From an uncultured Methylocystaceae bacterium (GTDB lineage: Bacteria > Pseudomonadota > Alphaproteobacteria > Rhizobiales > Beijerinckiaceae), in NCBI GenBank assembly GCA_945956975.1, contig CAMFKC010000001.1, positions 1-40,046 of the forward strand: 40,046 nucleotides of DNA, in the 5' to 3' direction. The notes below the pieces were generated by a model. The model was given only the letters and a program-made list of their open reading frames with translations, was not told where the DNA came from and searched no databases. The position numbers were made by a program, and so were the translations under genes. Shown in pieces: positions 5,206 to 30,743 of the stretch; position 1 is the stretch's first letter; each line of letters starts with the position of its first letter.

Positions 5206-5215
5206 GGCGCGCTCC

Positions 5216-8205: not shown

Positions 8206-8222
8206 TAGTCCAAAATGGATGT
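8206..8222. promoter_or_regulatory. Candidate operator, 7-3-7 inverted repeat (site a)
   Basis: Read on the minus strand: ACATCCA-TTT-TGGACTA. It lies between the divergent SBP gene (start 8059) and regulator gene (start 8269). An extra ATATCCA half-site is at 8185-8191. Confidence 0.6.
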
Positions 8223-8268
8223 TTTGCGTGATACACAGGAATATGAAGTCGAATAGCACGAGGTGAAG

Positions 8269-11240: not shown

Positions 11241-11303
11241 TCGATCCTCCCGTTCGATTTGCATCGGTCTTAGCCCGGCGGGTGGAGGATGCGAATTCCC
11301 CGG

Positions 11304-11320
11304 ATGTCCATTTTGGATAT
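11304..11320. promoter_or_regulatory. Candidate operator, 7-3-7 inverted repeat (site b)
   Basis: ATGTCCA-TTT-TGGATAT in the divergent intergenic region between the oxidoreductase genes starting at 11240 (-) and 11408 (+). Confidence 0.6.
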
Positions 11321-14117: not shown

Positions 14118-14134
14118 ATATCCATTTTGGATAA
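14118..14134. promoter_or_regulatory. Candidate operator, 7-3-7 inverted repeat (site c)
   Basis: ATATCCA-TTT-TGGATAA, upstream of the second fusion-regulator gene. An extra ATATCCA half-site is at 14096-14102. Confidence 0.6.
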
Positions 14135-14290
14135 ATCTGCTGATCAGCGCTCTCCGGATTTCTGTCAGAACTGTCTGCGTCACCTTCCACTCATCCCTGT
14201 GAGCCAGCCGTGAACGAGCATGTTCCCATTTCCCTGTCTCCGCTTCGCACCCGCCTTGGACGGAGGCGGGATGGGATTTACGGTGCGAGG

Positions 14291-16003: not shown

Positions 16004-16014
16004 GGAGGAACGTC

Positions 16015-16821: not shown

Positions 16822-16898
16822 CCGGCCGCCGCCGACCCTTTCCACCGATCCCTATCGCTATGACGCGCGCCCCTGACGGCTGCGCGAAGGAGAAAGCC

Positions 16899-18203: not shown

Positions 18204-18259
18204 CATCCCGCCGCGCCGGAGCGTCTGCCTCAGGTGCGGCCTTCACCGGGAAGAGATCC

Positions 18260-19267
18260 ATGACACAAAGGAAGACCAACTCCGACGCCTATCTGCGGAT
18301 GTACCGCCAGATGGTGCGCATCCGCGCCTTCGAGGACCAGGCGAATTCGCTTTACCTGTCGGCCAAGATGCCAGGGCTGACCCACATGTATTCCGGCCAG
18401 GAAGCGGTGGCGGTCGGCATCTGCGAGGCGTTGACGCGTGACGACAAGGTCACCTCGACTCATCGCGGCCACGGCCACTGCGTCGCCAAGGGTGCGGAAT
18501 TCAAGGAGATGTTCTGCGAGCTTCTCGGCCGTGCCGAGGGTTATTGCGGCGGCAAGGGCGGCTCCATGCACATCGCCGACCAGTCGAACGGCAATCTCGG
18601 AGCCAATGCCATCGTAGGCGGCTCGATGGGTATCGCCACGGGGGCCGCGCTTTCGGCCAAGCGTCTCGGGCGCAAGGATGTGACGGTCTGTTTCTTCGGC
18701 GACGGCGCGACGGCACAGGGCCTGCTCTACGAGGTCATGAACATGGCCGCGCTCTGGAGACTACCGGTCATCTATGCATGCGAGAACAACGGTTACAGCG
18801 AATATACCAAGACCGCCGAGATCGCCGCCGGCTCGCTGACGGCGCGCGCCGAGGCCTTCGGTATCGAAGCTTTCACCGTCGACGGCCAGGACGTGCTGGC
18901 AGTCAATGAGCTCGCACAGAAGCTGGTTGCCCGCTGCCGTAAGGGGGAGGGGCCGTTCTTCGTGCAGCTCGACACCTACCGCTATCACGGCCACCATGTC
19001 GGCGATATCAACCGCGAATACTACCGCTCCAAGGACGAGGAGGCGCTCTGGAAAAACGAGCGTGACCCGATCCTTAATTTCGGCCGCTGGCTGTCGGCCG
19101 AGGGCCTCGCGTCGGCCGACGAGCTCGCTGCCATCGAGAAGGCCGTGAAGGCCGATGCGGAAGCCGCCGTCGCCTATGCGCTGGCTGCGCCTTTCCCCGA
19201 TCCCTCGCAGGTGGGACGCCATGTCTTCACCGACATGATCGTCGCCCGAGGAGACCACAATGCGTGA
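18260..19267 (+). CDS. TPP-dependent 2-oxoacid/acetoin dehydrogenase E1 alpha subunit
   Basis: TPP-binding block FFGDGATAQGLLYEVMNMAALWRLPVIYACENNGY, plus YSGQEAVAVG and THRGHGH motifs. Confidence 0.9.
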   Translation: MTQRKTNSDAYLRMYRQMVRIRAFEDQANSLYLSAKMPGLTHMYSGQEAVAVGICEALTRDDKVTSTHRGHGHCVAKGAEFKEMFCELLGRAEGYCGGKGGSMHIADQSNGNLGANAIVGGSMGIATGAALSAKRLGRKDVTVCFFGDGATAQGLLYEVMNMAALWRLPVIYACENNGYSEYTKTAEIAAGSLTARAEAFGIEAFTVDGQDVLAVNELAQKLVARCRKGEGPFFVQLDTYRYHGHHVGDINREYYRSKDEEALWKNERDPILNFGRWLSAEGLASADELAAIEKAVKADAEAAVAYALAAPFPDPSQVGRHVFTDMIVARGDHNA

Positions 19268-20243
19268 AATCACCCTTTCCAAGGCCGTCAACGAGGCAAT
19301 CGCCGAGGAGATGCGCCGCGATCCCTCGATCTTCCTGATCGGCGAGGACGTCGCCGAGGCCGGTACGCCCTTCAAGGTGCTCTCCGGCCTCGTCGAGGAG
19401 TTCGGCCCGGACCGCATCATCGACACCCCCATTTCCGAACCCGGCTTCATGGGCATGGCGGTGGGCGCGGCGATAACGGGCAGCCGCCCGATCGTCGACC
19501 TGATGTTCGGCGACTTCATCTTCCTCGTCATGGACCAGCTCTGCAACCAGGCGGCCAAGACGCATTACATGTCGGGCGGCAAGCTGAAGGTGCCGCTCGT
19601 GCTGCGCACCAATCTCGGCGCTACCCGCCGCTCGGCCGCCCAGCACAGCCAGTCGCTGCATGCGCTCGTCGCGCATATTCCCGGCCTCAAGGTCGCGCTG
19701 CCGTCCTCGGCCTACGAGGCGAAGGGCCTCCTGAAGACGGCGATCCGCGACGACAACCCGGTCGTCATCTTCGAAGACAAGCTGATGTACCAGGAAAAGG
19801 CCGGCGTGCCCGAGGAGGAATATCTCATCCCCTTCGGTGTCGCCAACGTGAAGCGCGAGGGGCGCGACGTAACGCTCATTGCCACGTCCTCCATGGTGCA
19901 GGTCGCCGAAAAGGCGGCCGACATGCTCGCGGCCGAAGGTATTTCGGCCGAGGTCATCGACCCGCGCACGATCGTGCCGCTCGACGAGGAGACGCTGCTC
20001 GCCTCCGCGCGCAAGACCGGGCGCGTCGTCGTCATCGACGAGGGGCACCAGAGCTACGGCGTCACCGCCGAGATCGCCAGCCGCATCGGGGACAAGGCCT
20101 TCTACCATCTTGACGCGCCGGTGCAGCGCATGGGCGCCATGGATGTCCCGGTTCCCTTCTCGCCGGCGCTGGAGGACCTGACGGTGCCGACGCCGGATGG
20201 CGTAGCTGCGCGGGCGCGGGCGCTCGTACGCGGGGAGATCTGA
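19260..20243 (+). CDS. 2-oxoacid/acetoin dehydrogenase E1 beta subunit
   Basis: The ATG overlaps the E1 alpha 3' end. Transketolase-like pyrimidine-binding motifs (IGEDV, DTPISE.GF.G.A.GAA..G.RP) and the C-terminal domain are present. Confidence 0.9.
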   Translation: MREITLSKAVNEAIAEEMRRDPSIFLIGEDVAEAGTPFKVLSGLVEEFGPDRIIDTPISEPGFMGMAVGAAITGSRPIVDLMFGDFIFLVMDQLCNQAAKTHYMSGGKLKVPLVLRTNLGATRRSAAQHSQSLHALVAHIPGLKVALPSSAYEAKGLLKTAIRDDNPVVIFEDKLMYQEKAGVPEEEYLIPFGVANVKREGRDVTLIATSSMVQVAEKAADMLAAEGISAEVIDPRTIVPLDEETLLASARKTGRVVVIDEGHQSYGVTAEIASRIGDKAFYHLDAPVQRMGAMDVPVPFSPALEDLTVPTPDGVAARARALVRGEI

Positions 20244-20245
20244 CC

Positions 20246-21214
20246 ATGGCGAACGATGTCATCATGCCGGCGCTCGGCATGGCCCAGACCTCCGGCGTGA
20301 TCGTCAACTGGCTGAAGGCCACCGGTGACGCGGTGGCCGAAGGCGATCCGCTGATGGAGGTGGAGACCGACAAGGCGGTCATGGAGGTCCAGGCGCTCGC
20401 CTCCGGCTTCCTGATCGAGATCCTGCATCCCGCCGGTGCCGATGTCCCGGTCGGGGAGGTGATCGCCCGCATCGGCGCGAGCGCGGATGCGGTGGTTTCG
20501 GCGAAAAAGCCGGAGCCGGCGCCCGCCGTGGCGGCGGAAGCACCGGCCCGCGCGGTTGACGCAGCCGCTTCGCCCGAACCGGTGCGCAAGGCGCCCGCAC
20601 AGCCGGCCCAGGCGGGCAAAGTATTGGCCTCTCCCAAGGCGCGCCGGCTGGCCGACGAGCGCGGCGTCGATCTTCGCCGCCTCGTCGGCCAGGGCATCAC
20701 CGAGCCCATCCACGTCGCCGATCTCGACCGCTATGTCGCCGTTCCTGCGCCACAGGCCGCAGGCGCCGCGCTGAACGAGATCCTTGCCACCCTTCCGGCG
20801 GATGCGCTCCGGCAATTCGCCGACTGGGCCGAACGGGAAGCCGGGGTCTCGGCCGCCGCGCTGCTGGCGGCGCTTGCCGGCTCCGCGCTCGGCCGGCCGG
20901 CGACGATCCGCGTCGAGCACCGCCATGCGGCGCATGTCTACGACATCGGCGCCCGCCCGTCGCTCGGCGGGCTTGCCGCACGGGACGACGGGCAGGCCGA
21001 ATCGGCCCTCATCCTGCGTGACCTGAGGGGAAGCCGCATCGGGCGGGCAAGGCTGGCGGCCGATCTCGCCCCGGTGCTGACTCTTGCCGACGATGAGGAC
21101 CGGCTTTCCGTGACGCTCACCTTCACGGGCGACCGTTTGGGAACGGAGGATGCCTTCGCCCTGATCGACGCCTTTGCGGCGCGGGTGGAAAACCCGATGC
21201 GCCTGCTTCTCTAG
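20246..21214 (+). CDS. Lipoyl-carrier / E3-binding protein with a degenerate, His-less acyltransferase core (E3BP-like)
   Basis: Lipoyl domain with the VETDKAVMEV lipoyl-lysine motif, an Ala/Pro linker, and a peripheral-subunit-binding domain ASPKARRLADERGVDLRRLVGQG. The short C-terminal region ends ...TFTGDRLGTEDAFALIDAFAARVENPMRLLL. This aligns with the E2 DHR..G motif, but the catalytic His is absent. Confidence 0.75.
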   Translation: MANDVIMPALGMAQTSGVIVNWLKATGDAVAEGDPLMEVETDKAVMEVQALASGFLIEILHPAGADVPVGEVIARIGASADAVVSAKKPEPAPAVAAEAPARAVDAAASPEPVRKAPAQPAQAGKVLASPKARRLADERGVDLRRLVGQGITEPIHVADLDRYVAVPAPQAAGAALNEILATLPADALRQFADWAEREAGVSAAALLAALAGSALGRPATIRVEHRHAAHVYDIGARPSLGGLAARDDGQAESALILRDLRGSRIGRARLAADLAPVLTLADDEDRLSVTLTFTGDRLGTEDAFALIDAFAARVENPMRLLL

Positions 21215-21227
21215 GAGGAACCCCAAG

Positions 21228-22658
21228 ATGTTCCAGACCGAACTCTATATCAACGGCCAATGGCGCCCCGCCTCGGAAGGCGCCCGCTTCGACGTGCTGA
21301 ACCCCGCCGACGAGACCGTGCTCGCGTCCGTCGCCTCCGGGACGGTGGAGGATGCCAGGGCGGCCGTCGATGCTGCGGCGGAGGCGATGAAGGGCTGGGC
21401 GGCGAAGACGCCGCGCGCCCGCGCCGAGATCCTGCGCAAGGCCTTCGAGCTGATGACGGCGCGGCTGGAGGATTTCGCCCGGCTGATCACGCTGGAAAAC
21501 GGCAAGGCGCGTGCCGACGCCATGGGCGAGGCCGCCTATGCGGCGGAATTCTTCCGCTGGTTTTCGGAAGAGGCCGTGCGGGGCGAGGGGCTGCTTGCCC
21601 GTGCGCCGGCCTCGGGCGCGCGCATCCTGGTGCAGCAGCGGCCCGCCGGCGTGGCGGTGCTCGTTACCCCGTGGAACTATCCGGCCGCGATGGGAACGCG
21701 CAAGATCGCGCCTGCGCTCGCCGCGGGTTGCTCCGTTGTCATCAAGCCGGCGTCGGAAACGCCGCTCACCATGCTCGCCTTGATGCCACTCCTCGAAGAG
21801 GCGGGCGTGCCGCCAGGCGTCGTCAACGTCCTGCCTTCCCGCTCGTCCGGTGCGGTGGTCGATGCGATGCTGCGCGATCCGCGCGTGCGCGTCGTCTCGT
21901 TCACCGGTTCCACCGCCGTCGGGCGCAAGCTCCTGCATTCGGCGGCCGAACAGGTGCTCAAGCCCGCGATGGAGCTTGGCGGCAATGCCCCGGTCATCGT
22001 TTTCGAGGATGCCGATATCGATGTTGCCGTCGAGGGCGCGATGCTCGCCAAGATGCGCAACCTCGGCGAAGCCTGCACGGCGGCCAACCGCTTCTATGTG
22101 CATGAGGATGTCGCCGACGCCTTCGTCGATCGCTTCACCGCCCGCATGGCCGCGCTCAAGGTCGGCAACGGCATCGAGGCCGGCGTCGATGTCGGCCCGC
22201 TCGTCAATGCCGATACACGCGACAAGGTGGCCGCCTTCGTCGCCGATGCCGTGGCGAAGGGCGCGAAGGTCCGCCTCGGCGGGAAAGTGCCCGACGGCAA
22301 GGGCTTCTTCTATTCGCCGACGGTGCTGACCGACGTGCCCGACAACGCGGCCTGCGTCGGCGACGAGATCTTCGGCCCCGTCGCCGCCATCCAGACGTTC
22401 CGCGAGGAGGGCGAGGTCATCCGCCGCGCCAACGACACGGAATACGGCCTCGTGGCCTACGTCTTCACCCGCGACATGGCGCGAGGGCTGCGGGTCAGCG
22501 AACAGCTCGATTTCGGCATGATCGGCCTCAATCGTGGGCTCGTCTCCGATCCGGCCGCGCCCTTTGGGGGCATGAAGCAGTCCGGGCTCGGGCGTGAAGG
22601 GGGGCATGAGGGCATGCTCGAATTCATGGAGACCCAATATATCTCGGCGAGCTGGTGA
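21228..22658 (+). CDS. NAD(P)-dependent aldehyde dehydrogenase (succinate-semialdehyde dehydrogenase GabD-like)
   Basis: ATG 21228 follows TAGGAGGA. ALDH motifs VTPWNYP, FTGST.VG, catalytic Glu in MELGGNAP and catalytic Cys in GEACTAANR; C-terminal PFGG.K.SG.GREG. Confidence 0.88.
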   Translation: MFQTELYINGQWRPASEGARFDVLNPADETVLASVASGTVEDARAAVDAAAEAMKGWAAKTPRARAEILRKAFELMTARLEDFARLITLENGKARADAMGEAAYAAEFFRWFSEEAVRGEGLLARAPASGARILVQQRPAGVAVLVTPWNYPAAMGTRKIAPALAAGCSVVIKPASETPLTMLALMPLLEEAGVPPGVVNVLPSRSSGAVVDAMLRDPRVRVVSFTGSTAVGRKLLHSAAEQVLKPAMELGGNAPVIVFEDADIDVAVEGAMLAKMRNLGEACTAANRFYVHEDVADAFVDRFTARMAALKVGNGIEAGVDVGPLVNADTRDKVAAFVADAVAKGAKVRLGGKVPDGKGFFYSPTVLTDVPDNAACVGDEIFGPVAAIQTFREEGEVIRRANDTEYGLVAYVFTRDMARGLRVSEQLDFGMIGLNRGLVSDPAAPFGGMKQSGLGREGGHEGMLEFMETQYISASW

Positions 22659-22665
22659 GGCAACG

Positions 22666-23550
22666 ATGGTCGATTTCGTGGCAAGTCCCGCAACCCGCGC
22701 CTACGCCGCGCAAAAGGGCGTCGATCTGTCGGCGCTCGCGGCCGAGACGGGGCGGACGAACCTCGCGCGCGAGGATGTCGAGCGAAAGCTTTCAGGGGCG
22801 GCGCCCGTCGCCGTGAATACGGCCGATCCCTGGGCGGTGGACCATGGCCAGTGGGGGCCGGTTCGCCACGAGCCGCTGTCGAAGCTGATGCAGCTCGGCG
22901 CGGCCAACCTGTCGGTGGCGCAGCGCCTCATCCCGGCCGTGACCCATCACGACGAGGCGGAGATGGATGCCGTCGAGGCGCTCCGGGCCGGGCTTCGGGC
23001 CGATGCCGCGGAAAAGGGCGTGAAGCTGACGGCGCTCGCCTTTCATGTGCTGGCGCTCGCCGCGTGCCTGAAGGCCTTCCCGCGCTTCAACGCATCGCTG
23101 ACGGCGGACGGCACGGCGCTCGTCCTGAAGGACTATGTGCATATCGGCGTCGCCGTCGATACGCCGAACGGCCTGATGGTCCCGGTCATCCGCGATGCCG
23201 ACCGCAAGGGTCTCCTTGCGGTCGCAGCGGAGATCGCCGACCTTGCCGCCCGCGCGCAGGCGCGAAAAATCCGGCCGGACGAGATGGGCGGCGCGTCCAT
23301 GTCCATTTCCAGCCTCGGCGGCATCGGCGGCAGCGCCTTCACGCCGATCGTCAATCCGCCGGAAGTGGCGATCCTCGGCATCACGCGCGCGCAGATGCAG
23401 CCGCACTGGAACGGCGAGGCTTTCGAGCCGCGCCTGACCGTCCCGCTCGACCTCTCCTACGACCATCGCGCGATCAACGGGGCCGATGCGGCGCGCTTCC
23501 TGTCGTTCTACGCGCGGCTGATCGCTGATCCGCGCCGCCTGCTGCTGTGA
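22666..23550 (+). CDS. 2-oxoacid dehydrogenase E2 acyltransferase, catalytic core with E3-binding domain but no lipoyl domain
   Basis: The N-terminus is directly a PSBD (ASPATRAYAAQKGVDLSAL...AREDVE). A full catalytic domain follows, with the active-site motif SYDHRAINGADAARFL and C-terminal DPRRLLL. No lipoyl-lysine motif upstream in frame. Confidence 0.8.
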   Translation: MVDFVASPATRAYAAQKGVDLSALAAETGRTNLAREDVERKLSGAAPVAVNTADPWAVDHGQWGPVRHEPLSKLMQLGAANLSVAQRLIPAVTHHDEAEMDAVEALRAGLRADAAEKGVKLTALAFHVLALAACLKAFPRFNASLTADGTALVLKDYVHIGVAVDTPNGLMVPVIRDADRKGLLAVAAEIADLAARAQARKIRPDEMGGASMSISSLGGIGGSAFTPIVNPPEVAILGITRAQMQPHWNGEAFEPRLTVPLDLSYDHRAINGADAARFLSFYARLIADPRRLLL

Positions 23551-23557
23551 GGAACGC

Positions 23558-24937
23558 ATGACACGGAAAGTCGATTTTCTGGTGATCGGGGCGGGGCCGG
23601 GCGGCTATGCCGCCGCCTTCCGCGCCGCCGATCTCGGCCGAAAGGTGGTGCTGGTCGATGCCCGGGCGACGCTCGGCGGCGTCTGCCTCAACGAGGGCTG
23701 CATCCCGTCGAAGGCGCTGCTGCACGCCGCGGCCATTCTGCACGAGATGAGCGAGGCGAAGGACTGGGGAATCGCCGTGGAAGAGCGGCCACCGATCGAT
23801 CTTGAAAGGCTGCGGGCGCGAAAGGACGGGATCGTCACCACCCTCACGGGTGGTCTTGCCGGCCTGGCGCGCCGGCGCAAGGTCGAGGTGATCCAGGGTT
23901 TTGCCCGCTTCGGCGGGCCCGACCGCGTCGTCGTCGGCGACGAGGAACTGCAGTTTGCAGATTGTGTCATCGCCACAGGCTCCGCGCCGGTACGCCTGCC
24001 CAGCTGGCCGGAGGATTCGCGGATCTGGGACAGCACGGCCGCGCTGGAGCTGCGTGGCGTTCCGGACCGGCTGGCCGTCGTCGGGGGCGGCATCATCGGG
24101 CTGGAAATGGCGACGGTCTATGCCGCGCTGGGCTCGGCCGTGACGGTCGTCGAGCTCGGCCCGCAGATCGTTCCCGGTGCCGATGGCGAGGCCGCCTCGA
24201 TCCTGCGGGCGTCGCTGGAGGCCTCGGGCTGCCGGATCCTGACCGACACGCGCGTCACGGCGATAACGCCGGGCAAGGAAACCGTCGGCCTCGAGCTTTC
24301 GGGCGCGGTGGAGGAGCATGTCGAGGCCGATGCCGTCATACAGGCCGTCGGGCGCCGGGCGGATGCCGCCGCGCTCGACCTTGCCAAGGCAGGACTGGAG
24401 GCGAGGGCGGACGGAACGCTGGCCGTCGATCCCTACGGTCGCACCGGCAAGGCGAACATCTACGCGATCGGCGACGTCACCGGCGGGCCGATGCTCGCCC
24501 ACCGGGCGACGCATCAGGGCAAGATCGCCGCCGAGCTTGCCTCGGGGCATCATCCCGCGCCGCTTTCCGCCCTCATCCCCTCGGTCGCCTATACCCGGCC
24601 GGAGCTCGCCTGGATCGGCCAGAGCCTCGATCAGGCCAGGGCGGCGGGCGTGAAGGCAAGGGCGGCAAGCTTTCCCTGGCAGGCAAGCGGCCGGAACCTC
24701 ACCTCGGGGGCCGGGGCCGGGCTGACGCGGCTCGTCTATTGCGAGGAGAGCAAGCGCCTGCTTGGCGCGACGCTGGTCGGAACCAATGCCGGCGAGCTCC
24801 TGTCGGAGCTGACGCTGGCAATCGAGATGGGTGCGCGGCTGGAGGACGTCGCGCTGACGGTCCACGCCCATCCAACCCTGTCGGAGACGGTGGCCTTTGC
24901 GGCCGAGCGCGCGCTCGGCACGCTGACCGATCTCTGA
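23558..24937 (+). CDS. lpdA: Dihydrolipoyl dehydrogenase (E3)
   Basis: FAD motif VIGAGPGGYAAA, redox-active disulfide GGVCLNEGCIPSK, NAD motif VVGGGIIGLE, and C-terminal interface motif HAHPTLSE. Confidence 0.92.
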   Translation: MTRKVDFLVIGAGPGGYAAAFRAADLGRKVVLVDARATLGGVCLNEGCIPSKALLHAAAILHEMSEAKDWGIAVEERPPIDLERLRARKDGIVTTLTGGLAGLARRRKVEVIQGFARFGGPDRVVVGDEELQFADCVIATGSAPVRLPSWPEDSRIWDSTAALELRGVPDRLAVVGGGIIGLEMATVYAALGSAVTVVELGPQIVPGADGEAASILRASLEASGCRILTDTRVTAITPGKETVGLELSGAVEEHVEADAVIQAVGRRADAAALDLAKAGLEARADGTLAVDPYGRTGKANIYAIGDVTGGPMLAHRATHQGKIAAELASGHHPAPLSALIPSVAYTRPELAWIGQSLDQARAAGVKARAASFPWQASGRNLTSGAGAGLTRLVYCEESKRLLGATLVGTNAGELLSELTLAIEMGARLEDVALTVHAHPTLSETVAFAAERALGTLTDL

Positions 24938-24959
24938 CGGCGACATAGGGAGGAATGAA

Positions 24960-25913
24960 ATGAGCTGGAAATCGGGCGCGGCCGCGGGCCTGCGCCAGGG
25001 CGGGCTATGGGTCGGCTTCGTGCTGTTCATGGCAATCGTGGCGATCAACGCGCCGGCCTTCCTGAGCCCGGGCAACCTTCTGGACGTGCTGCGCCAGGTC
25101 TCGATCACGGGCACGATAGCGCTCGGCGTGACCTTCGTCGTCATCGCGGGCCGGCTGGATCTTTCCGTCGGTTCGGGCCTGACGCTCCTGACGATCATCA
25201 TCGTCGACCAGCACAACCACGCGGGTCCGGCGGGCGCGATCGCGCTGACGCTGCTCGCCGGCCTTGCCATCGGCGCCTGGAACGGCCTTCTCGTCGGTTT
25301 CCTGCGGTTCAACGCGCTCATCGTCACGCTCGCCATGCTGTCGGTGCTGCAGGGCCTCGCGCTCTGGTATTCCGGCGGCTCGAACGTGAGCGTTTCAAGC
25401 CCGGGATGGTTCGCGGTCTTCGGCCGCGGGACCTGGCTCGGCATTCCGGTTCCCGTCCTGCTCATGCTGGCCGGGGCGGCGCTCGCCGCATTCCTCCTCC
25501 GGCGCACCGCGTTCGGCCGGGCGGTCTTCGCCGTCGGCGGCAACGAGACGGCGGCGCTCTTTTCCGGCATCTCGCCCGCGCGTACCGTGTTCCTCGCCTA
25601 TCTGCTGAGCGGCTTTTCCACAGCGCTCGGCGCAATCATCATGGGCAGCCGCGTCATGGGCGCGCAAAGCACCATCGGCCAGGGCTACGAGCTGAACGTG
25701 CTTGCCGGCATCATCCTCGGCGGCACCTCGCTGATGGGCGGAGCGGGCAGCATCTGGCGCACGCTCTGGGGCGTGCTGATGCTCGGCTTCATCCAAAACG
25801 GGCTCATCCTGATGGGCTTTCCGTTCTATGCGCAGTGGCTCGTCACCTGGGGTGTCATCATCGCGGCGGTCTGGATCGACCTTGCCGCCAAGCGGGGGAG
25901 GATGCTGGCATGA
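24960..25913 (+). CDS. Sugar ABC transporter permease (CUT2)
   Basis: Multi-TM protein with AGRLDLSVGS and LGGTSLMGGAGS motifs. Paralog of CDS 5216..6190, with an almost identical C-terminus (QWLVTW.VII.AVW.D.AAKRGRM). Confidence 0.9.
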   Translation: MSWKSGAAAGLRQGGLWVGFVLFMAIVAINAPAFLSPGNLLDVLRQVSITGTIALGVTFVVIAGRLDLSVGSGLTLLTIIIVDQHNHAGPAGAIALTLLAGLAIGAWNGLLVGFLRFNALIVTLAMLSVLQGLALWYSGGSNVSVSSPGWFAVFGRGTWLGIPVPVLLMLAGAALAAFLLRRTAFGRAVFAVGGNETAALFSGISPARTVFLAYLLSGFSTALGAIIMGSRVMGAQSTIGQGYELNVLAGIILGGTSLMGGAGSIWRTLWGVLMLGFIQNGLILMGFPFYAQWLVTWGVIIAAVWIDLAAKRGRMLA

Positions 25914-26869
25914 ACGGCACCACCGTCCGGCGGCTCGCCGCCGATCACTATGTCTGGATGCTGCTCGCGCTGGTCTGCGTCTTCTTCGCTCTCCTGTCGC
26001 CGCATTTCCTGACGGCGTTCAACATCGGCAACGTGCTGACGCAATCGGCATTCATCGGCCTCTTGGCCATCGGCATGACGCTGGTGATCCTGAACGGCGA
26101 GATCGATCTTTCGGTCGGCGCCACGCTCGCCCTTTCCGCCGCCCTGGCGATCGGGCTGCAGAACAGCGGCTGGCCGACGAGCGCGGCCATCGCGGCGGGC
26201 CTTCTCGCCGGCACGGCGCTCGGCTTTATCAACGGCGCGGTCGTCGTCGCCTCCGGCATGCATTCCTTCGTGGTCACGCTCGGCGCGCTGATCGGCATTC
26301 GCGGGCTCGTCTTCGTCTACACCAAGGGCAATGCGCTGCTGGTCGAGGATTTCACCTATGCGGACCTTCTGGAGGTCCATGTCGGCCCGGTCTCGCTGAC
26401 GGCGATCATCTTCCTCGGCATGCTCGCCTTCTTCCAGTGGCTGCTCTCGGCCAGCCGCCACGGACGCGAGGCCTATGCGGTGGGGGATAACCCCGAAGCC
26501 GCGCGGGACGCGGGCGTCAAGGTCGGCCGCCACAAGATCATCAACTTCACCATTTCGGGCTTCCTGGCGGCGCTCTGCGGCATTCTCCTGTCGATCCGCC
26601 TCGGCACGGCCGAGCCGCAGGCCGGCCGTATCTGGGAATTGTGGACCATTATCGCCGTCGTGCTGGGCGGCACGCGGCTGCAAGGCGGCGTCGGCAGCCT
26701 GTGGAAGACGCTCGGCGGCGTGCTCGTCCTCGCCGTGCTCCAGAATGGCCTGCGGCTTCTCAACACGCCCAACCATGTCGAGCTGATCGTCATGGGCGTG
26801 ATCCTGATGATCGCGCTCGGCATCGACCGATTGATGACCCTGCTGCGCGCAAGAGAGAGGACAGCATGA
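25910..26869 (+). CDS. Sugar ABC transporter permease (CUT2)
   Basis: ATG 25910 overlaps the upstream stop (ATGA). The CDS is embedded in the 3' part of the artefactual 620-aa ORF 25007..26869. LNGEIDLSVGA and LGGTRLQGGVGS motifs. Paralog of CDS 4231..5205. Confidence 0.9.
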   Translation: MNGTTVRRLAADHYVWMLLALVCVFFALLSPHFLTAFNIGNVLTQSAFIGLLAIGMTLVILNGEIDLSVGATLALSAALAIGLQNSGWPTSAAIAAGLLAGTALGFINGAVVVASGMHSFVVTLGALIGIRGLVFVYTKGNALLVEDFTYADLLEVHVGPVSLTAIIFLGMLAFFQWLLSASRHGREAYAVGDNPEAARDAGVKVGRHKIINFTISGFLAALCGILLSIRLGTAEPQAGRIWELWTIIAVVLGGTRLQGGVGSLWKTLGGVLVLAVLQNGLRLLNTPNHVELIVMGVILMIALGIDRLMTLLRARERTA

Positions 26870-28356
26870 CCGACCTATTGATGATCCGCGGCGTTTCCAA
26901 GCGCTTTCCCGGCGTGCAGGCGCTGACCGGTGTCGATTTCGATCTCCGGCCGGGTGAGGTCCATGCCCTGATGGGCGAGAACGGCGCCGGCAAGTCGACG
27001 CTGATGAAGATCCTCGCCGGCCTGCAGCCGGCCGACGACGGCGAGATCCTGCACCGGGGCGAGGCGATAGCGCTTCGCAGCCCGCTCGAGGCGCGCGAGC
27101 GGGGCATTCTCCTCATCCACCAGGAGCTTTCTTTGTCGCCAGAACTCTCGGCGGCGGAGAACATCTATCTCGGCGCCTGGCCGACGAACGGCATCGGGCT
27201 CCTGCGCAAGTCGGAGCTGAACAGGCGGGCGGGGGAGGCGCTGAAGGCGCTCGGCTGTGATGTCGGCCCGCGGACCCGTGTCGGGAGCCTTTCCATCGCG
27301 CGCAAGCAGATGGTTGAGATCGCGCGCATCCACGCCTTCAAGGCCAATGTGGTCATTCTCGACGAACCGACCGCCTCGCTGACCGACGCCGAGCGCGACC
27401 AGCTCTTCGCGACGATCCGGGACCTCAAGGCGCGCGGCGTCGGCATCATCTACATCTCCCACAAGATGGACGAGATTTTCACCATCACGGATCGCATCAC
27501 CGTGCTGCGCGACGGTATCGTGCAGGGCACGCTCACCACTAGCGAAACCGATGCGGACCGCGTCACGCAGATGATGATCGGCCGCAAGCTGGACGCTTTC
27601 TTCAGCCGGGCCGAGGAGCGGTTTGGTGAGGAGGTGCTGCGCGTCGAGGGCCTCGGACGCCGGGGCGACTACCACGACGTCTCCTTCTCCGTCCGGCAGG
27701 GCGAAGTGCTGGGGCTCTACGGGCTAATCGGCGCGGGGCGCTCCGAGGTGGTCGAGAGTCTCTTCGGCATCCGCGGGCCCGACCGCGGCAAGCTCTGGTG
27801 GCAGGGGCGGGAGACGGCCTTTCCCTCGCCCCGGCAGGCGATCGACATGGGCCTCTGCCTTACGCCGGAAAACCGCAAGGAGCAGGGCCTGGTGCTCGGT
27901 CTCGGTGGGCGGGACAACATCGTGCTTCCGAGCCTGAAGGCCTTTTCGCGCTTGGGCATCATGCGCCGTTCGCGCGAGCAGGCGGTGTATCTGACCTATC
28001 GCGACCTGCTGCAGATCAAGACGACCGGGCCGGCCACGGCCCTGCGAACGCTTTCCGGCGGCAACCAGCAGAAGTTCGTGCTTGCCAAATGGCTCTGCCG
28101 CAAGCCGAAGCTCCTGATCCTGGACGAGCCGACGCGCGGCATCGACGTCGGCTCCAAGGCGGCGATCCATGCCCTGATCGCGAAGCTTGCGGAGGAGGGG
28201 CTGGCCGTCATCGTCATCTCCTCCGAAATGCCCGAAGTGCTCGGCGTCAGCCACCGCATTCTCACCATGGCCGACGGCCGCCTGACTGGCGAGTTCTCCG
28301 GCGCGGCGATGACTGAGGAAAACCTGATCCGGGCCGTCGCGCATCACGCGGCCTGA
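26866..28356 (+). CDS. Sugar ABC transporter ATP-binding protein, fused double NBD
   Basis: The ATG overlaps the upstream stop (ATGA). Walker A GENGAGKST and GLIGAGRSE, signature LSGGNQQK, Walker B VILDEPT and LILDEPT. Paralog of CDS 2693..4234. Confidence 0.92.
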   Translation: MTDLLMIRGVSKRFPGVQALTGVDFDLRPGEVHALMGENGAGKSTLMKILAGLQPADDGEILHRGEAIALRSPLEARERGILLIHQELSLSPELSAAENIYLGAWPTNGIGLLRKSELNRRAGEALKALGCDVGPRTRVGSLSIARKQMVEIARIHAFKANVVILDEPTASLTDAERDQLFATIRDLKARGVGIIYISHKMDEIFTITDRITVLRDGIVQGTLTTSETDADRVTQMMIGRKLDAFFSRAEERFGEEVLRVEGLGRRGDYHDVSFSVRQGEVLGLYGLIGAGRSEVVESLFGIRGPDRGKLWWQGRETAFPSPRQAIDMGLCLTPENRKEQGLVLGLGGRDNIVLPSLKAFSRLGIMRRSREQAVYLTYRDLLQIKTTGPATALRTLSGGNQQKFVLAKWLCRKPKLLILDEPTRGIDVGSKAAIHALIAKLAEEGLAVIVISSEMPEVLGVSHRILTMADGRLTGEFSGAAMTEENLIRAVAHHAA

Positions 28357-28494: not shown

Positions 28495-29490
28495 TTACCA
28501 GCTCGGGCGTTCGAAGTTGTCGATGGTGTCGGCCGTGATCTTGTCGATGGCGATCTCCTGCACCGGCGGCACCGCGATGCCGTTGGCGACCTTCACAGCC
28601 GTCTGGATGGCGAGCACCGCGTCGTCGATGGGCGACTGCTTGCCCGATCCCGTCTGCCAGCCCGCCTTGATGGCGTCCCAGCCTTCGCCGAACTGGTTGC
28701 AGGTGACGAGCTTGACCTCGCCGGGCTTCTTGCCGGCGGCCTGGAGGGCCGAGATGACGCCGAGGCCCATGCCGTCGTCGAAGGCATAGACGCCGTTGAT
28801 CTTCTCGCCATACTGCGTGAGGAAGGTTTCCATCACGGTCTGGGCCTTCTCGCGGTTCCAGTCGGCCGGCTGGCTCGCCAGGATCTTGATGTCGGGATAC
28901 TTGTCCTCCATCGCGTCGAGGAAGCAGTTGCCGCGCAGGATCGAGACGGAATAGCCCGGCGTGCCCTCGATGACCACGACATTGCCCTTGCCGCCGAGCG
29001 AGTCGCCGAGCATCTCGGCGGCCTGCGAGGCGAGCTTGCAATCGTCCGGCCCGGTATGGGCGGTCACGTATTGACGGCCGGCCTCGCCAATCGGGCTGTT
29101 CGATGTGACGACCGGAATGTTGGCGCGCGAGGCCTGGCGCACGGCGGGGATGAGGGCGTTCTGCGATGTCGGCCACAGCACGATAACGTCCATCTTCTGG
29201 GCGATCATGTCCTGCAACTGGTTGAACTGCGTGGCCGGATCGCCCTGCGGGTCCATGACGGTCGCGTCGATGCCGATCTCCTTGGCATAGGAGACGGCGG
29301 CTTCGGCATATTTCGCCTGGTAGGAGTTCGAGCCGGGGTAAAGCACGGTGATGCCGATGCGGGTATCGGCAAGCGGCTTCTTCAGCTCGCCGCCCAGCCA
29401 GTCGGGCGCCGCCTGGGCCGCGGCCGCTCCGTTGCCGGCGATGGAAGCTGTCAGGGTGAGCGCGGCAGCGAGCGCTGTACGTTTGATCAT
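28495..29490 (-). CDS. Periplasmic sugar-binding protein (type I PBP)
   Basis: ATG 29490 follows GGAGGA. Signal peptide MIKRTALAAALTLTASIAGNGAAAAQA. Paralog of CDS 7109..8059. The longer 405-aa ORF start was rejected. Confidence 0.9.
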   Translation of the reverse strand: MIKRTALAAALTLTASIAGNGAAAAQAAPDWLGGELKKPLADTRIGITVLYPGSNSYQAKYAEAAVSYAKEIGIDATVMDPQGDPATQFNQLQDMIAQKMDVIVLWPTSQNALIPAVRQASRANIPVVTSNSPIGEAGRQYVTAHTGPDDCKLASQAAEMLGDSLGGKGNVVVIEGTPGYSVSILRGNCFLDAMEDKYPDIKILASQPADWNREKAQTVMETFLTQYGEKINGVYAFDDGMGLGVISALQAAGKKPGEVKLVTCNQFGEGWDAIKAGWQTGSGKQSPIDDAVLAIQTAVKVANGIAVPPVQEIAIDKITADTIDNFERPSW

Positions 29491-29582: not shown

Positions 29583-29599
29583 ATATCCACTTTGGATAT
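29583..29599. promoter_or_regulatory. Candidate operator, perfect 7-3-7 inverted repeat (site d1)
   Basis: ATATCCA-CTT-TGGATAT with perfectly complementary arms, in the divergent region between the SBP gene (start 29490, -) and the IdhA-like gene (start 29727, +). Confidence 0.65.
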
Positions 29600-29640
29600 G
29601 CGGGCGCGACCGGGCGACCAGCGGCGGTGGCCGTCCGGCC

Positions 29641-29657
29641 ATATCCATTTTGAACAT
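29641..29657. promoter_or_regulatory. Candidate operator, 7-3-7 inverted repeat (site d2)
   Basis: ATATCCA-TTT-TGAACAT, 58 bp (start to start) downstream of site d1 in the same divergent region. Confidence 0.5.
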
Positions 29658-29726: not shown

Positions 29727-30743
29727 ATGGCTGGTTTTGCAGTTCTCGGCACCGGGCGCATCGGCGCCATGCATGCCGAGATCATCGCCCGCTCGAGGCA
29801 TTCGAGGGTGGTCTGGACCTATGATGCCGTGCCGGAGCTCGCCGAGCGCGCCGCGGCCCTTTGCGGCGCACGGTGGACGGCCGACGTCGACGAGGCATTG
29901 GCCGACGACGCGGTGGAGGCCGTGCTGATCGCCTCGCCGACGAACACCCATGCGGACCTCATCGTCCGCGCTGCCCGCGCCGGCAAGGCCGTGTTCTGCG
30001 AGAAACCGATCGATGCCGAGCTTGCCAAGGTCGAGGAATGCGCGCGCCAGCTCCAGCCCTATTCTGTTCCGATCCAGATCGGCTTCAACCGCCGCTTCGA
30101 TCCGAGCCACGCCGCCGTCGAAGCGGCGGTGCGCGCGGGCGAGATCGGCGAACTGGAAATGCTCGTCATTTCCAGCCGCGATCCGGAGCCGCCGCCGCGC
30201 CCGATCCTCGAAGCCTGCGGCGGCCTGTTCCGGGACACGACCATCCACGACCTGGACATGGCGCGGTTCATCCTCGGCGAGGAGCCTGTAGAGGTCTATG
30301 CGACGGCATCGAACCTCGTCGATCCGATGATCGGGGAAGTCGGGGACGTCGATACCGCGATGGTCGTGCTCAGGACCGCCAGCGGCAAGCTTTGCCACAT
30401 CAACAATTCGCGCCGCACGACCTACGGCTACGACCAGCGGGTCGAGGCCTTCGGATCGAAGGGCATGGTCCGCTCGGACAATCCGCGCCCGACGGCGCTC
30501 GTGCGCTACGGGTCCGGCGGCACCGCCGTCCGCGATCCTCTGCTGCATTTCTTCATCGAACGCTACCGGGACGCCTATGCGCGGGAGATAAACGCCTTCG
30601 TCGATTTCGTCGAAAAGGGCGGTCCCTCGCCGGTCTCCTTCGAGGATGGGCGACGCGCGCTGATCCTTGCCGAAACGGCAATTCAATCCGCCCGCTCCGG
30701 CGTGGCGGTGAAAGTGGATTACGGCGTCAAGGCGACATCGTAA
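29727..30743 (+). CDS. Inositol 2-dehydrogenase-like oxidoreductase (IdhA/IolG-like, Gfo/Idh/MocA family)
   Basis: ATG 29727 follows AGGGGAGG. Motifs VLGTGRIG, FCEKPI, FNRRFDP. Paralog of CDS 13003..14004. Confidence 0.87.
   Translation: MAGFAVLGTGRIGAMHAEIIARSRHSRVVWTYDAVPELAERAAALCGARWTADVDEALADDAVEAVLIASPTNTHADLIVRAARAGKAVFCEKPIDAELAKVEECARQLQPYSVPIQIGFNRRFDPSHAAVEAAVRAGEIGELEMLVISSRDPEPPPRPILEACGGLFRDTTIHDLDMARFILGEEPVEVYATASNLVDPMIGEVGDVDTAMVVLRTASGKLCHINNSRRTTYGYDQRVEAFGSKGMVRSDNPRPTALVRYGSGGTAVRDPLLHFFIERYRDAYAREINAFVDFVEKGGPSPVSFEDGRRALILAETAIQSARSGVAVKVDYGVKATS

What the first reader, a model, noticed from the sequence alone, without database searches (positions are those of the whole stretch)
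29583..29657. Shared 17-bp 7-3-7 palindrome marks four promoter regions: a candidate regulon operator for the fusion regulators
There are five copies, all intergenic. They are 29583-29599 ATATCCA-CTT-TGGATAT (perfect arms), 29641-29657 ATATCCA-TTT-TGAACAT, 14118-14134 ATATCCA-TTT-TGGATAA, 11304-11320 ATGTCCA-TTT-TGGATAT, and 8206-8222 (minus strand) ACATCCA-TTT-TGGACTA. Isolated ATATCCA half-sites lie at 8185-8191 and 14096-14102. The sites precede the two paralogous SBP/ABC operons, both fusion-regulator genes, the divergent MocA/GMC oxidoreductase pair and the IdhA-like gene at 29727. By eye I did not find the motif in the other promoter regions (770-840, 30744-30813, 34814-35125, 36236-36320). 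That separates a palindrome regulon (roughly 2.7-30.7 kb) from the flanking transporter loci. A dyad of this size fits binding by a dimeric wHTH protein. The A/T-rich motif stands out against the GC-rich background.
Basis: seen in the sequence. Interest (0 to 1): 0.8.

Follow-up and report, generated by a model that had tools for sequence, protein, structure and literature searches.

The report
Operator of misannotated sugar-sensor regulators
A 17-bp palindrome (ATATCCA-N3-TGGATAT) found in four promoter regions is very likely the DNA docking site of an uncharacterised regulator family, a MarR-like DNA-binding head fused to a transporter-type sugar-binding domain, which public databases label as "extracellular solute-binding proteins" in hundreds of marine and soil alphaproteobacteria.

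Summary
All five 17-mers are at the stated coordinates. The "half-site" at 8185 is really a sixth, degenerate full site, phased 21 bp from 8206. All six sites are intergenic. Enrichment holds against shuffles of intergenic DNA alone (5 observed vs 0.10 expected; none in 37 kb of coding DNA). A PWM trained only on other species scores the six sites 22.8-29.0, and the next best hit scores 12.4.

In 83 of 83 loci from other species, the motif lies just upstream of the orthologous regulator gene, usually as a tandem pair exactly 21 bp apart (69 cases). A second regulator subfamily, about 39% identical but with the same recognition helix and wing, carries the same motif in both of its divergent promoter regions.

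The regulators are cytoplasmic. They combine a distant MarR-like winged-helix head with an intact CUT1/MalE-type SBP sensor domain. No database or paper I could search calls them regulators.

The most likely mechanism is dimers binding each palindrome to autorepress and to repress CUT2 transporter and oxidoreductase operons, with release by a polyol- or cyclitol-like effector. Binding, its sign and the effector are all inferred. I rate this a new variant of a known kind, of moderate to high interest.

The parts
8185..8201 (.). Operator site A1 (ATATCCATATCTGATAA). A degenerate palindrome and the distal member of the 21-bp tandem pair in the SBP_A<->Reg1 divergent region.
   Evidence: PWM 19.1 and 22.8 with the other-species PWM. 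The 21-bp phasing to A2 equals the spacing seen 69 times in other species. The CTGATA-type half recurs in class-II loci.
8206..8222 (.). Operator site A2 (minus strand ACATCCATTTTGGACTA), the proximal member of the tandem pair. It ends 41-48 bp before the Reg1 start (8263 GTG or 8270 ATG).
11304..11320 (.). Operator site B (ATGTCCATTTTGGATAT) in the MocA1<->GMC divergent region. It lies 40 bp from the MocA1 ATG (11264) and 103 bp from the GMC start (11423).
   Evidence: The orthologous GMC<->MocA regions in L085 and L086 also carry sites, as does the Reg'<->GMC region in class-II loci.
14118..14134 (.). Operator site C (ATATCCATTTTGGATAA), upstream of Reg2.
   Evidence: The identical site is conserved in the near-identical contig L084.
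14096..14102 (.). Orphan ATATCCA half-site, 22 bp upstream of site C. Probably a decayed remnant of the distal tandem site.
   Evidence: Sequence. No PWM hit >=9 here.
29583..29599 (.). Operator site D1 (ATATCCACTTTGGATAT, perfect arms), 93 bp from the SBP_D ATG (29490, minus strand).
   Evidence: SBP_D orthologs carry sites 109-305 bp upstream in 29 of 30 informative loci.
29641..29657 (.). Operator site D2 (ATATCCATTTTGAACAT), 70 bp upstream of the IolG ATG (29727) and 58 bp from D1.
   Evidence: The same 58-bp pair occurs in the 98%-identical contig L087, and 58/59 bp recurs in Reg'<->GMC regions.
8263..10095 (+). Reg1: a cytoplasmic regulator with a MarR-like wHTH head and an SBP_bac_1 sensor domain.
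   Evidence: Pfam SBP_bac_1 83.8 bits. 64% identical to Reg2. No signal peptide. Conserved wHTH signature.
14210..16003 (+). Reg2: paralogous wHTH-SBP regulator. The true start is probably the ATG at 14291 or 14297.
   Evidence: Pfam SBP_bac_1 102.5 bits, MarR_2 22.2 bits, sub-threshold. AF2 models. MarR-family fold neighbours. P0001, the product called on the near-identical contig, is 568 aa, matching the ATG at 14297 (M30).
2693..8059 (-). Target operon 1: SBP_A (Peripla_BP_4), SDR, two permeases and an ATPase (a CUT2-type ABC importer).
   Evidence: Pfam. The divergent SBP_A is conserved in 82 of 83 loci.
10119..11264 (-). Target gene MocA1 (GFO/IDH/MocA oxidoreductase). Its best NCBIfam hit is levoglucosan dehydrogenase, below cut-off.
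11423..14004 (+). Target operon GMC oxidoreductase plus MocA2.
16000..28356 (+). Genes downstream of Reg2, presumably one operon: SDR, M24 (creatinase/DddP-like), E1 alpha, E1 beta, E2 lipoyl protein, aldehyde dehydrogenase, E2 catalytic protein, E3, two permeases and an ATPase.
   Evidence: Pfam. SDR in 83 of 83 loci, M24 in 72 of 83 and E1a/b in 58 of 83 are syntenic downstream of the regulator.
28495..29490 (-). Target gene SBP_D (Peripla_BP_4, has a signal peptide).
29727..30743 (+). Target gene IolG (inositol 2-dehydrogenase equivalog).
   Evidence: NCBIfam TIGR04380 415.6 bits against a cut-off of 355.

Best explanation
The 17-bp palindrome (cross-species consensus ATATCCA-WWW-TGGATAT, with A/T-rich flanks) is the operator of a family of cytoplasmic one-component regulators. 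Reg1 and Reg2 in this window belong to that family.

Architecture. Each regulator has an N-terminal, distantly MarR-like winged-helix head. The recognition helix reads 'PYATA.R+L.EM' and the wing reads 'RPR..SGKSFS.HPS'. This head is joined to an intact CUT1/MalE-type solute-binding domain that serves as an intracellular ligand sensor.

Proposed mechanism. A dimer occupies each palindrome, with half-site centres 10 bp apart (one helical turn). At the ancestral divergent promoter (regulator <-> CUT2 transporter operon), two palindromes sit exactly 21 bp apart, which places two dimers on the same DNA face. Several sites lie 8-50 bp from start codons, so occupancy most likely blocks transcription: autorepression plus repression of the transporter and oxidoreductase operons. 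Binding of a sugar-alcohol or cyclitol-type effector, or a pathway intermediate, would close the Venus-flytrap sensor and release the DNA.

This window. It merges two such systems. Class I is SBP_A, SDR and the M24/E1/E2 genes. Class II is SBP_D and the GMC/MocA genes. Both are under two class-I paralogs, with IolG also recruited.

Shown here: motif statistics, promoter restriction, cross-species conservation next to the regulator gene, domain architecture, and lack of a signal peptide.
Inferred: physical binding, dimer or tetramer stoichiometry, repression rather than activation (about 65-70% in my estimate), and the nature of the effector.
For: Statistics in the window.

Phylogenetic footprint, class I. 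83 of 83 loci from different species (Rhodobacterales and Hyphomicrobiales) have at least one site in the 600 bp upstream of the regulator, and 77 of 83 have at least two. Spacing is exactly 21 bp in 69 cases. 146 of 155 PWM hits in 1.09 Mb lie in that region. The anchored information profile shows that only the two palindromes, a third weak site and the RBS are conserved.

Class II. 88 of 101 hits in 170 kb fall in the two divergent promoter regions flanking SBP_D and Reg'. The one locus lacking a Reg' gene next to SBP_D/GMC (L091) also lacks sites.

Only conserved regulator. The fusion protein is the only regulator gene conserved across these neighbourhoods.

Head. The domain-only AF2 model (pLDDT 84.7) has a1-a2-a3-a4-wing-a5 topology. 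Its PDB neighbours are nearly all MarR-family proteins, including DNA complexes. MarR_2 hits are sub-threshold in 19 of 19 members.

Shared reading head. Reg' is 39% identical overall but keeps the recognition helix and wing, which matches a shared motif.

Sensor. SBP_bac_1 is above threshold. The closest solved relatives are sugar and polyol SBPs (5iai, 1eu8, 4rya).

Cytoplasmic location. No signal-like segment, unlike the four true SBPs in the window.

Site positions near start codons. 40 bp from the MocA1 start, 41-48 bp from Reg1, and 8 bp from Reg' in L105.

Helix-motif covariation. Arg at the start of the recognition helix goes with TTCA half-sites, the best of 486 tests.
Against: There is no experimental binding, TSS or expression data. 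The E. coli-type promoter scan found nothing in any of the four regions, so operator-promoter overlap is not established, and repression versus activation rests only on distance to start codons. Some of those start codons are uncertain (Reg1 8263, 8270 or 8386; Reg2 14210, 14291 or 14297).

The covariation signal reduces to about 2 independent evolutionary changes, so it is weak on its own.

The head does not reach any Pfam gathering threshold (25.3 vs 27 bits), and fold matches are modest (TM 0.40-0.49).

Spacing is not uniform outside the class-I promoter (58 bp, 45-123 bp, and single sites), so a single 'tetramer on one face' model cannot hold everywhere.

The effector is unknown. The polyol idea rests on distant SBP relatives and on gene content.
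Confidence: 0.8

Rival explanations
1. The palindrome is a real operator and the fusion proteins bind it, but they act mainly as ligand-dependent activators. Alternatively, they play a dual role: autorepressor plus activator of the transporter operon.
For: In the class-I divergon the tandem pair sits about 126-150 bp from the SBP_A start codon. That distance is compatible with an upstream activator position for that operon. No promoter elements could be placed. Some MarR-family members do activate (general knowledge).
Against: Several sites lie too close to start codons to sit upstream of a -35 element: 40 bp from MocA1, 41-48 bp from Reg1, and 8 bp from Reg' in L105. Local sugar-catabolic regulators with palindromic operators in divergent regions are typically repressors (general knowledge).
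Confidence: 0.15
2. The motif is an operator, but for a different, unlinked transcription factor. The fusion proteins would then be sensors or chaperones that merely co-occur with it.
For: Binding has not been shown. The head misses Pfam thresholds. The helix-motif covariation amounts to only about 2 events.
Against: The fusion protein is the only regulator gene conserved in 83 class-I and about 22 class-II neighbourhoods. The motif tracks its promoter in 83 of 83 loci. Two subfamilies 39% identical overall keep the same reading head and the same motif. The head has a confident wHTH model with MarR-family neighbours. The locus without the regulator lacks sites (L091).
Confidence: 0.04
3. The palindromes are not protein-binding sites. 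They would be chance A/T-rich inverted repeats, remnants of a mobile or REP-like repeat, or RNA or DNA hairpins.
For: The motif is A/T-rich and intergenic DNA is A/T-richer than coding DNA (GC 0.51-0.67 vs 0.66). One terminator-like hairpin call overlaps D2.
Against: The intergenic-only shuffle gives 0 of 2000. The position and 21-bp phasing are conserved across genera while surrounding bases are not. There are no Rfam hits. A 7-bp A/T-rich stem with a 3-nt loop is not a stable hairpin. No flanking repeat structure typical of mobile elements was seen.
Confidence: 0.01

Closest known systems
MarR-family transcription regulators (e.g. MarR, MepR, PefR, HcaR, MftR)
   Same: The winged-helix head has a1-a2-a3-a4(recognition)-beta wing-a5 topology. 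Nearly all top PDB fold neighbours are MarR proteins, and MarR_2 hits are sub-threshold in every member. The inferred operator is a 16-20-bp palindrome at the regulator's own promoter, often in tandem, which is the usual MarR arrangement (general knowledge).
   Different: No Pfam MarR model reaches its gathering score (25.3 vs 27 bits), and TM-scores are only 0.40-0.49. Classical MarRs are single-domain proteins of about 150 aa that bind ligand in or near the dimer/wHTH interface. Here a separate SBP domain of about 400 aa is the presumed sensor.
TrmB family sugar-sensing regulators (Thermococcus/Pyrococcus TrmB, TrmBL1)
   Same: The functional logic is the same: an N-terminal wHTH plus a C-terminal sugar-binding domain, controlling a sugar ABC transporter operon through a palindromic site and released by sugar (general knowledge). 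The TrmB HTH model gives weak hits in 15 of 19 heads.
   Different: The TrmB hits are far below threshold (15.8 vs 25.6 bits). The TrmB sugar-binding domain is not an ABC-transporter SBP fold, whereas here the C-terminus is a bona fide SBP_bac_1 domain.
LacI/GalR and LysR families (HTH fused to periplasmic-binding-protein-like sensor domains)
   Same: The principle is the same: a Venus-flytrap PBP-fold domain recruited as a cytoplasmic effector sensor for a DNA-binding head. LacI-type members repress sugar catabolic and transport operons from palindromic operators.
   Different: The head differs (LacI-type HTH or LysR wHTH, not MarR-like). The sensor class differs too: type I Peripla_BP_1/3, or a short LysR_substrate domain, rather than a full-length CUT1/MalE-type SBP_bac_1 that still aligns end to end with transport SBPs (5iai, E 4e-30). 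The motif also differs.
CUT1 ABC-transporter solute-binding proteins (MalE, TMBP, SmoF, Agrobacterium polyol and sugar SBPs)
   Same: The C-terminal ~400 aa are homologous (Pfam SBP_bac_1 83.8 and 102.5 bits; PDB sequence and fold hits). Every source that names these proteins uses a transport-SBP label, e.g. 'extracellular solute-binding protein' or 'ABC transporter substrate-binding protein'.
   Different: There is no signal peptide or lipobox, and an N-terminal wHTH domain of about 150-180 aa sits in its place. No CUT1 permeases are adjacent: the neighbouring transporters are CUT2 type with their own Peripla_BP_4 SBPs.

Membership tests
Transcription-factor operator / local regulon | Motif statistically over-represented relative to composition-matched DNA | tested here: met
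   4 vs 0.42. 5 vs 0.10 in intergenic-only shuffles, 0 of 2000. Six hits >=22.8 with the other-species PWM against a null of 0.1 at >=15.
Transcription-factor operator / local regulon | Restricted to promoter/intergenic regions | tested here: met
   0 relaxed-core matches in 37 kb of coding DNA. 146 of 155 hits in 1.09 Mb lie within 500 bp upstream of the regulator. 88 of 101 hits fall in class-II promoter windows.
Transcription-factor operator / local regulon | Conserved in orthologous regulatory regions and co-occurring with the candidate regulator gene | tested here: met
   83 of 83 class-I loci. L085 and L086. 29 of 30 informative SBP_D loci, and co-absence in L091.
Transcription-factor operator / local regulon | Direct binding by the regulator, and a regulatory effect of the site | not testable with these tools
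   This needs EMSA or footprinting, plus reporter or knockout data.
MarR family | Match to Pfam MarR/MarR_2 at the gathering score | tested here: not met
   Best MarR_2 score is 25.3 bits against a cut-off of 27. All 19 of 19 members are sub-threshold.
MarR family | MarR-type winged-helix fold (a1-a2-a3-a4-b-b-a5) | tested here: met
   The domain model has pLDDT 84.7 and this topology. The top ~50 PDB fold hits are nearly all MarR-family proteins, but TM is only 0.40-0.49 and E is 5e-4 to 6e-3.
MarR family | Single-domain ~150-aa protein with ligand sensing within the wHTH dimer | tested here: not met
   The proteins are about 570-610 aa with a separate SBP_bac_1 domain.
MarR family | Homodimer through the N- and C-terminal helices | not testable with these tools
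   Only monomer models are available. The long a1 and a5 helices are present.
CUT1 ABC-transporter solute-binding proteins | SBP_bac_1 domain above the Pfam threshold | tested here: met
   83.8 and 102.5 bits against a cut-off of 26.
CUT1 ABC-transporter solute-binding proteins | Export signal (signal peptide or lipobox) | tested here: not met
   Maximum 15-aa hydropathy is 1.1 and there is no N-terminal hydrophobic segment. The true SBPs in the window score 1.6-1.9 and have clear signal peptides.
CUT1 ABC-transporter solute-binding proteins | Encoded next to cognate CUT1 permeases | tested here: not met
   The neighbouring permeases are BPD_transp_2 (CUT2 type) with their own Peripla_BP_4 SBPs.
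TrmB family | TrmB HTH domain at the Pfam threshold, plus the TrmB-type C-terminal sugar-binding domain | tested here: not met
   TrmB scores 15.8 bits against a cut-off of 25.6. The C-terminus is SBP_bac_1.
LacI/GalR family | LacI-type HTH plus a Peripla_BP_1/3 sensor | tested here: not met
   No such Pfam hits in Reg1 or Reg2.

The most novel reading that the evidence does not exclude
An intact CUT1 (MalE-type) ABC-transporter binding protein was captured as a cytoplasmic ligand sensor by a divergent MarR-like head. This founded a self-contained regulator family with the following properties.

- Size: at least 1,573 clusters at 90% identity, at least 535 species-level genomes, and about 155 clusters at 50% identity for the head domain.
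- Annotation: every source that names these proteins labels them as transport SBPs (extracellular solute-binding or ABC substrate-binding proteins).
- Shared DNA code: its subfamilies use one operator code, ATATCCA-N3-TGGATAT.
- Diverged sensors: the subfamilies have diverged in their sensor domains, and so presumably in their effectors.
- Targets: they control a conserved but biochemically unassigned catabolic module (two SDRs, an M24 hydrolase-like protein, an acetoin-dehydrogenase-like E1/E2 complex and an aldehyde dehydrogenase), together with GMC/MocA oxidoreductase modules, in marine Rhodobacterales and Hyphomicrobiales.
Probability: 0.65. Interest if true: 0.7.

Novelty: new variant of a known kind. 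Interest (0 to 1): 0.62.

Why it matters
1. Annotation. It would re-label a protein family found in hundreds of marine and soil alphaproteobacterial species from "extracellular solute-binding protein" to transcription factor. This affects transporter censuses in ocean metagenomics, where SBP counts are used as proxies for substrate use.

2. Testable predictions. It supplies an operator, a site architecture (21-bp tandem pair, 58-bp pair) and a target list, all ready for direct experimental testing.

3. Evolution. It shows a recent capture of a full transporter SBP as a cytoplasmic sensor. This is a living analogue of the ancient events that produced LacI and LysR, and a natural scaffold for biosensors, because CUT1 SBP ligand pockets are well understood.

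4. Metabolism. It marks a highly conserved but unassigned catabolic module for pathway discovery. M24 is 82% and E1 beta 85% identical (median) across genera.

Tried and rejected
- Promoter placement. Sigma-70 consensus scans of all four regions found no promoters. This is uninformative for an alphaproteobacterium, so sites could not be placed relative to -35/-10.
- RNA families. Rfam over the whole window gave no hits.
- Full-length model. The full-length AF2 model was mediocre (pLDDT 63.9), and its fold search only recovered MalE-like SBPs and artificial MBP fusions. I therefore used a domain-only model.
- Head vs PDB by sequence. A profile of the head against PDB sequences gave only marginal hits, with E values of 0.05-1.1.
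- Naming models. NCBIfam has no naming model for the regulators.
- Literature. Seven full-text searches found no description of the family, the motif or the conserved pathway. 'HVO_A0261' returned nothing.
- Covariation. The helix-motif covariation looked very strong (p = 2.5e-7), but I downgraded it after a tree check showed only about 2 independent changes.
- Effector and pathway. I could not go beyond 'polyol/cyclitol-like'. An acetoin-type cleavage of a keto-polyol by the E1/E2 complex is speculation only.
- Weak extra sites. I considered the hit inside the Reg1 coding region (9091-9107) and those at 34995 and 35034 as additional sites. I rejected them: scores are <=12.4, and 9091 is explained by the conserved protein sequence.
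- Plasmid search. It gave partial matches only (<=25% coverage), so the window's replicon and organism remain unidentified. The nearest sequence is a metagenomic contig.
Full report
OBSERVATION

The window is 65.6% GC. All five 17-mers are at the stated coordinates with the stated sequences, and the two ATATCCA half-sites are present.

- The exact core TCCA-N3-TGGA occurs 4 times against 0.42 expected (0 of 100 shuffles reach 4).
- A symmetric PWM built from the five sites finds six strong hits (>=19) against 0.05 expected at >=15. The sixth is 8185-8201 (ATATCCATATCTGATAA).
- The motif is A/T-rich and intergenic DNA is A/T-richer, so I repeated the test on the 2.8 kb of intergenic DNA alone. 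The relaxed core occurs 5 times against 0.10 expected (0 of 2000 shuffles), and 0 times in 37.3 kb of coding DNA.
- To remove circularity, I trained a PWM only on 195 sites from other species. In the window the six sites score 22.8-29.0 and the next best hit scores 12.4.

GENE CONTEXT

| Region | Coordinates | Content |
|---|---|---|
| Operon 1 | 2693-8059 (-) | SBP_A (Peripla_BP_4), SDR, two permeases, ATPase |
| Intergenic A | sites 8185, 8206 | |
| Reg1 | 8263-10095 (+) | wHTH-SBP regulator |
| MocA1 | 10119-11264 (-) | GFO/IDH/MocA oxidoreductase |
| Intergenic B | site 11304 | |
| GMC + MocA2 | 11423-14004 (+) | oxidoreductases |
| Intergenic C | site 14118, orphan half-site 14096 | |
| Reg2 operon | 14210-28356 (+) | Reg2, SDR, M24, E1 alpha, E1 beta, E2 lipoyl, aldehyde dehydrogenase, E2 catalytic, E3, two permeases, ATPase |
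| SBP_D | 28495-29490 (-) | Peripla_BP_4 SBP |
| Intergenic D | sites 29583, 29641 | |
| IolG | 29727-30743 (+) | TIGR04380, 415.6 bits vs cut-off 355 |

Reg1 and Reg2 are 64% identical.

THE REGULATORS

- Domains. Both carry SBP_bac_1/SBP_bac_8 domains above threshold, plus an N-terminal region of about 150-180 aa with only a sub-threshold MarR_2 hit.
- Location. They have no signal-peptide-like segment (maximum hydropathy 1.1). The four genuine SBPs in the window score 1.6-1.9 and have clear signal peptides.
- Family size and labels. Homologs number at least 1,573 clusters at 90% identity. Wherever a source names them, it calls them 'extracellular solute-binding protein', 'ABC transporter substrate-binding protein' or similar transport-SBP names. 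NCBIfam has no naming model.
- Conserved head. An alignment of 23 members shows a strongly conserved head: 'VTPTSL..SGVPYATA.RRL.EM..AGLIEQRPRTRSGKSFSLHPS'.
- Fold of the head. Modelled alone, the head gives pLDDT 84.7 and pTM 0.75, with topology a1(2-27), a2(35-48), a3(55-61), a4(66-78), beta-hairpin wing (82-98), a5(100-121). Its PDB fold neighbours are almost exclusively MarR-family regulators (PefR, MepR, MarR, BldR, HcaR, HosA, MftR, several DNA-bound). Similarity is modest (TM 0.40-0.49, E 5e-4 to 6e-3).
- Sequence-level relation of the head. MarR_2 hits 19 of 19 members and TrmB hits 15 of 19, all sub-threshold. A PDB sequence profile gives only marginal hits.
- Sensor. The sensor domain aligns end to end with CUT1 sugar and polyol SBPs (5iai, E 4e-30; TMBP 1eu8; 4rya labelled 'Sorbitol'; SmoF).
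- Distribution of the head. Searched against 1.84 billion representatives, the head matches only 155 clusters. None are ordinary MarR proteins, and every full-length hit is about 540-630 aa. The distant representatives I read share the two-part architecture. The head therefore seems to exist only as this fusion.

PHYLOGENETIC FOOTPRINTING, CLASS I

A scan of one genome per species found relatives in at least 535 genomes. I kept 80 loci, from Rhodobacterales and from Hyphomicrobiales such as Oricola, Hoeflea, Stappia, Roseibium and Cucumibacter. I added three annotated plasmid loci from Marinovum, Pacificitalea and Tritonibacter.

- Synteny. Divergent SBP_A is present in 82 of 83 loci, both SDRs in 83 of 83, M24 in 72 of 83, and E1 alpha/beta in 58 of 83 (the last limited by flank length). 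MocA1, GMC, MocA2, SBP_D and IolG are found in 0 of 83 within 6 kb.
- Position of the motif. Of 89 exact cores in 1.09 Mb, 71 lie in the 300 bp before the regulator match. At PWM >=17, 146 of 155 hits lie within 500 bp upstream.
- Number and spacing. Every locus has at least one site and 77 of 83 have at least two. The distance between successive sites is exactly 21 bp in 69 cases. A third site is common 34, 84/85 or 139 bp further toward the regulator.
- Conserved columns. Anchoring all regions on the pair gives the consensus AAATATATCCATTTTGGATATTTT-TATATCCATAATGGATATTTTGG. Little else is conserved apart from a weak third site (ATTTGAACA) and an RBS/ATG about 53 bp after site 2.

EXPANDED AND CLASS-II REGULONS

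- Closer relatives of Reg2 (L085 at 73% identity, L086 at 69%) sit next to the same GMC-MocA2 <-> MocA1 divergon, and that intergenic region carries sites. L085 has sites in three further promoter regions, all intergenic.
- 33 metagenomic relatives of SBP_D (68-98% identical) show a second conserved layout: ATPase_D <- perm <-> SBP_D ->, <- Reg' <-> GMC ->.
- Reg' is only 39% identical to Reg1 overall, but it keeps the reading head: 'GVPYGTAMRRIGEL..RPRSKSGKSFSLHPT'.
- Sites occur 109-305 bp upstream of SBP_D in 29 of the 30 loci with enough upstream sequence. They also occur in the Reg'<->GMC region, often 58 or 59 bp apart. 88 of 101 hits in 170 kb fall in these two windows.
- The one locus where SBP_D is followed directly by GMC, with no Reg', has no site (L091).
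- Window region D has the same 58-bp spacing, as does its 98%-identical relative L087.
- The window therefore combines class-I and class-II target genes under two class-I paralogs, with IolG added.

MECHANISM

- Shown: an over-represented, promoter-restricted, phylogenetically conserved palindrome that tracks the promoter of a cytoplasmic wHTH-SBP protein in two subfamilies.
- Inferred: a dimer binds per palindrome (half-site centres are 10 bp apart). Two dimers sit on one DNA face at the 21-bp pair. The A/T flanks suit minor-groove wing contacts.
- Repression. I think repression is likelier than activation (about 65-70%). Sites lie 40 bp from the MocA1 start codon, 41-48 bp from the Reg1 start and 8 bp from the Reg' start in L105. 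Promoters could not be located, and some start codons are uncertain.
- Effector. The nearest solved relatives of the sensor, and of both transporter SBPs (2ioy; 5hko, 4rs3 and 4rsm from M. smegmatis, which I recall as polyol complexes, from memory only), together with the SDR, MocA, GMC and IolG content, suggest a sugar alcohol, a cyclitol or a keto intermediate. This is a lead, not a result.

COVARIATION

Arg at the first variable position of the recognition helix (PYAT[A/G]-R) goes with TTCA rather than TCCA half-sites: mean 2.54 vs 0.79 of 4 half-sites, p = 2.5e-7, the best of 486 tests. On a tree built from the sensor domain, the Arg state needs only 2 changes. This is consistent with co-evolution but adds little independent weight.

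COMPARISON WITH KNOWN SYSTEMS

- It works like a MarR- or LacI-type local repressor with a palindromic operator, and like TrmB in pairing a wHTH with a sugar-binding domain to control a sugar ABC transporter.
- It is not a member of Pfam MarR, TrmB or LacI by their thresholds.
- It fails two defining features of transport SBPs, namely an export signal and cognate CUT1 permeases.
- Seven full-text searches found no description of the architecture, the motif or the conserved pathway. That library is incomplete, so prior description cannot be excluded.

VERDICT

Novelty: a new variant of a known kind, an uncharacterised and misannotated one-component regulator family together with its operator. 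Interest is 0.62. The finding is solid and immediately testable, it corrects annotation in at least 535 species-level genomes, and it points to an unassigned conserved pathway. The regulatory principle itself is conventional.

Noticed in passing
window 1744-2692: A 949-bp stretch with no convincing ORF and lower GC (52% against 66% for the window), between an SBP gene and the ATPase end of the SBP_A operon. It has no Rfam hit. It holds only small ORFs, including a 58-aa hydrophobic one at 2509-2685 (minus strand).
   Followed up: partly
window 16000-24937, and L001-L003, L086: A highly conserved, biochemically unassigned module lies downstream of the regulator: SDR, an M24 protein (creatinase/DddP-like; its best NCBIfam hit is DddP at 105 bits against a cut-off of 600), acetoin-dehydrogenase-like E1 alpha/beta, an E2 split into a lipoyl-domain protein and a catalytic-domain protein with an aldehyde dehydrogenase gene between them, and E3 in this window. 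Median identity across genera is 82% for M24 and 85% for E1 beta.
   Followed up: partly
window 24960-29490, compared with L088-L119: In most relatives the SBP_D gene is divergent from its permease/ATPase genes. In this window, and in the 98%-identical L087, the arrangement differs. The ATPase gene is convergent with SBP_D, and in the window the permease and ATPase genes lie at the tail of the long Reg2 operon. This implies an inversion or fusion that merged the two systems.
   Followed up: partly
window 9091-9107: A weak palindrome-like match, GATACCATAATGGATAT (PWM 11-12), lies inside the Reg1 coding region. It encodes the family-conserved 'LPLDTIMDID' segment, so it is probably a by-product of the protein sequence.
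   Followed up: partly
window 29650-29675: Just after, and overlapping, site D2 there is a direct repeat of TTGAAC (TTGAACATATTGAAC), followed by a small palindrome, GAAC-GTT-GTTC. These could be extra half-sites for the same regulator (the TGAACAT variant) or a site for another factor acting on IolG.
   Followed up: no
window 29627-29642 and 11333-11351: GC-rich elements sit next to operator sites: a 6-bp-stem hairpin, GTGGCC-GTCC-GGCCAT, abutting D2 (flagged as terminator-like), and a (GGCC)n run, GGCCGGCCGGCCGGCC, 13 bp after site B. Their significance is unknown.
   Followed up: no
L085 (Logan SRR27010089) 1-16408: A relative with a larger regulon. Sites lie in five promoter regions that control AP_endonuc_2 (sugar-phosphate isomerase/epimerase-like) genes, a PhyH dioxygenase, several MocA oxidoreductases, a CUT2 transporter and the GMC/MocA divergon. 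This suggests that the regulon's content is evolutionarily plastic.
   Followed up: partly
P0171: A distant family member with a strongly low-GC, Lys/Asn/Ile-rich sequence. The wHTH-SBP architecture therefore extends beyond high-GC Rhodobacterales and Hyphomicrobiales. Its organism and operator were not examined.
   Followed up: no
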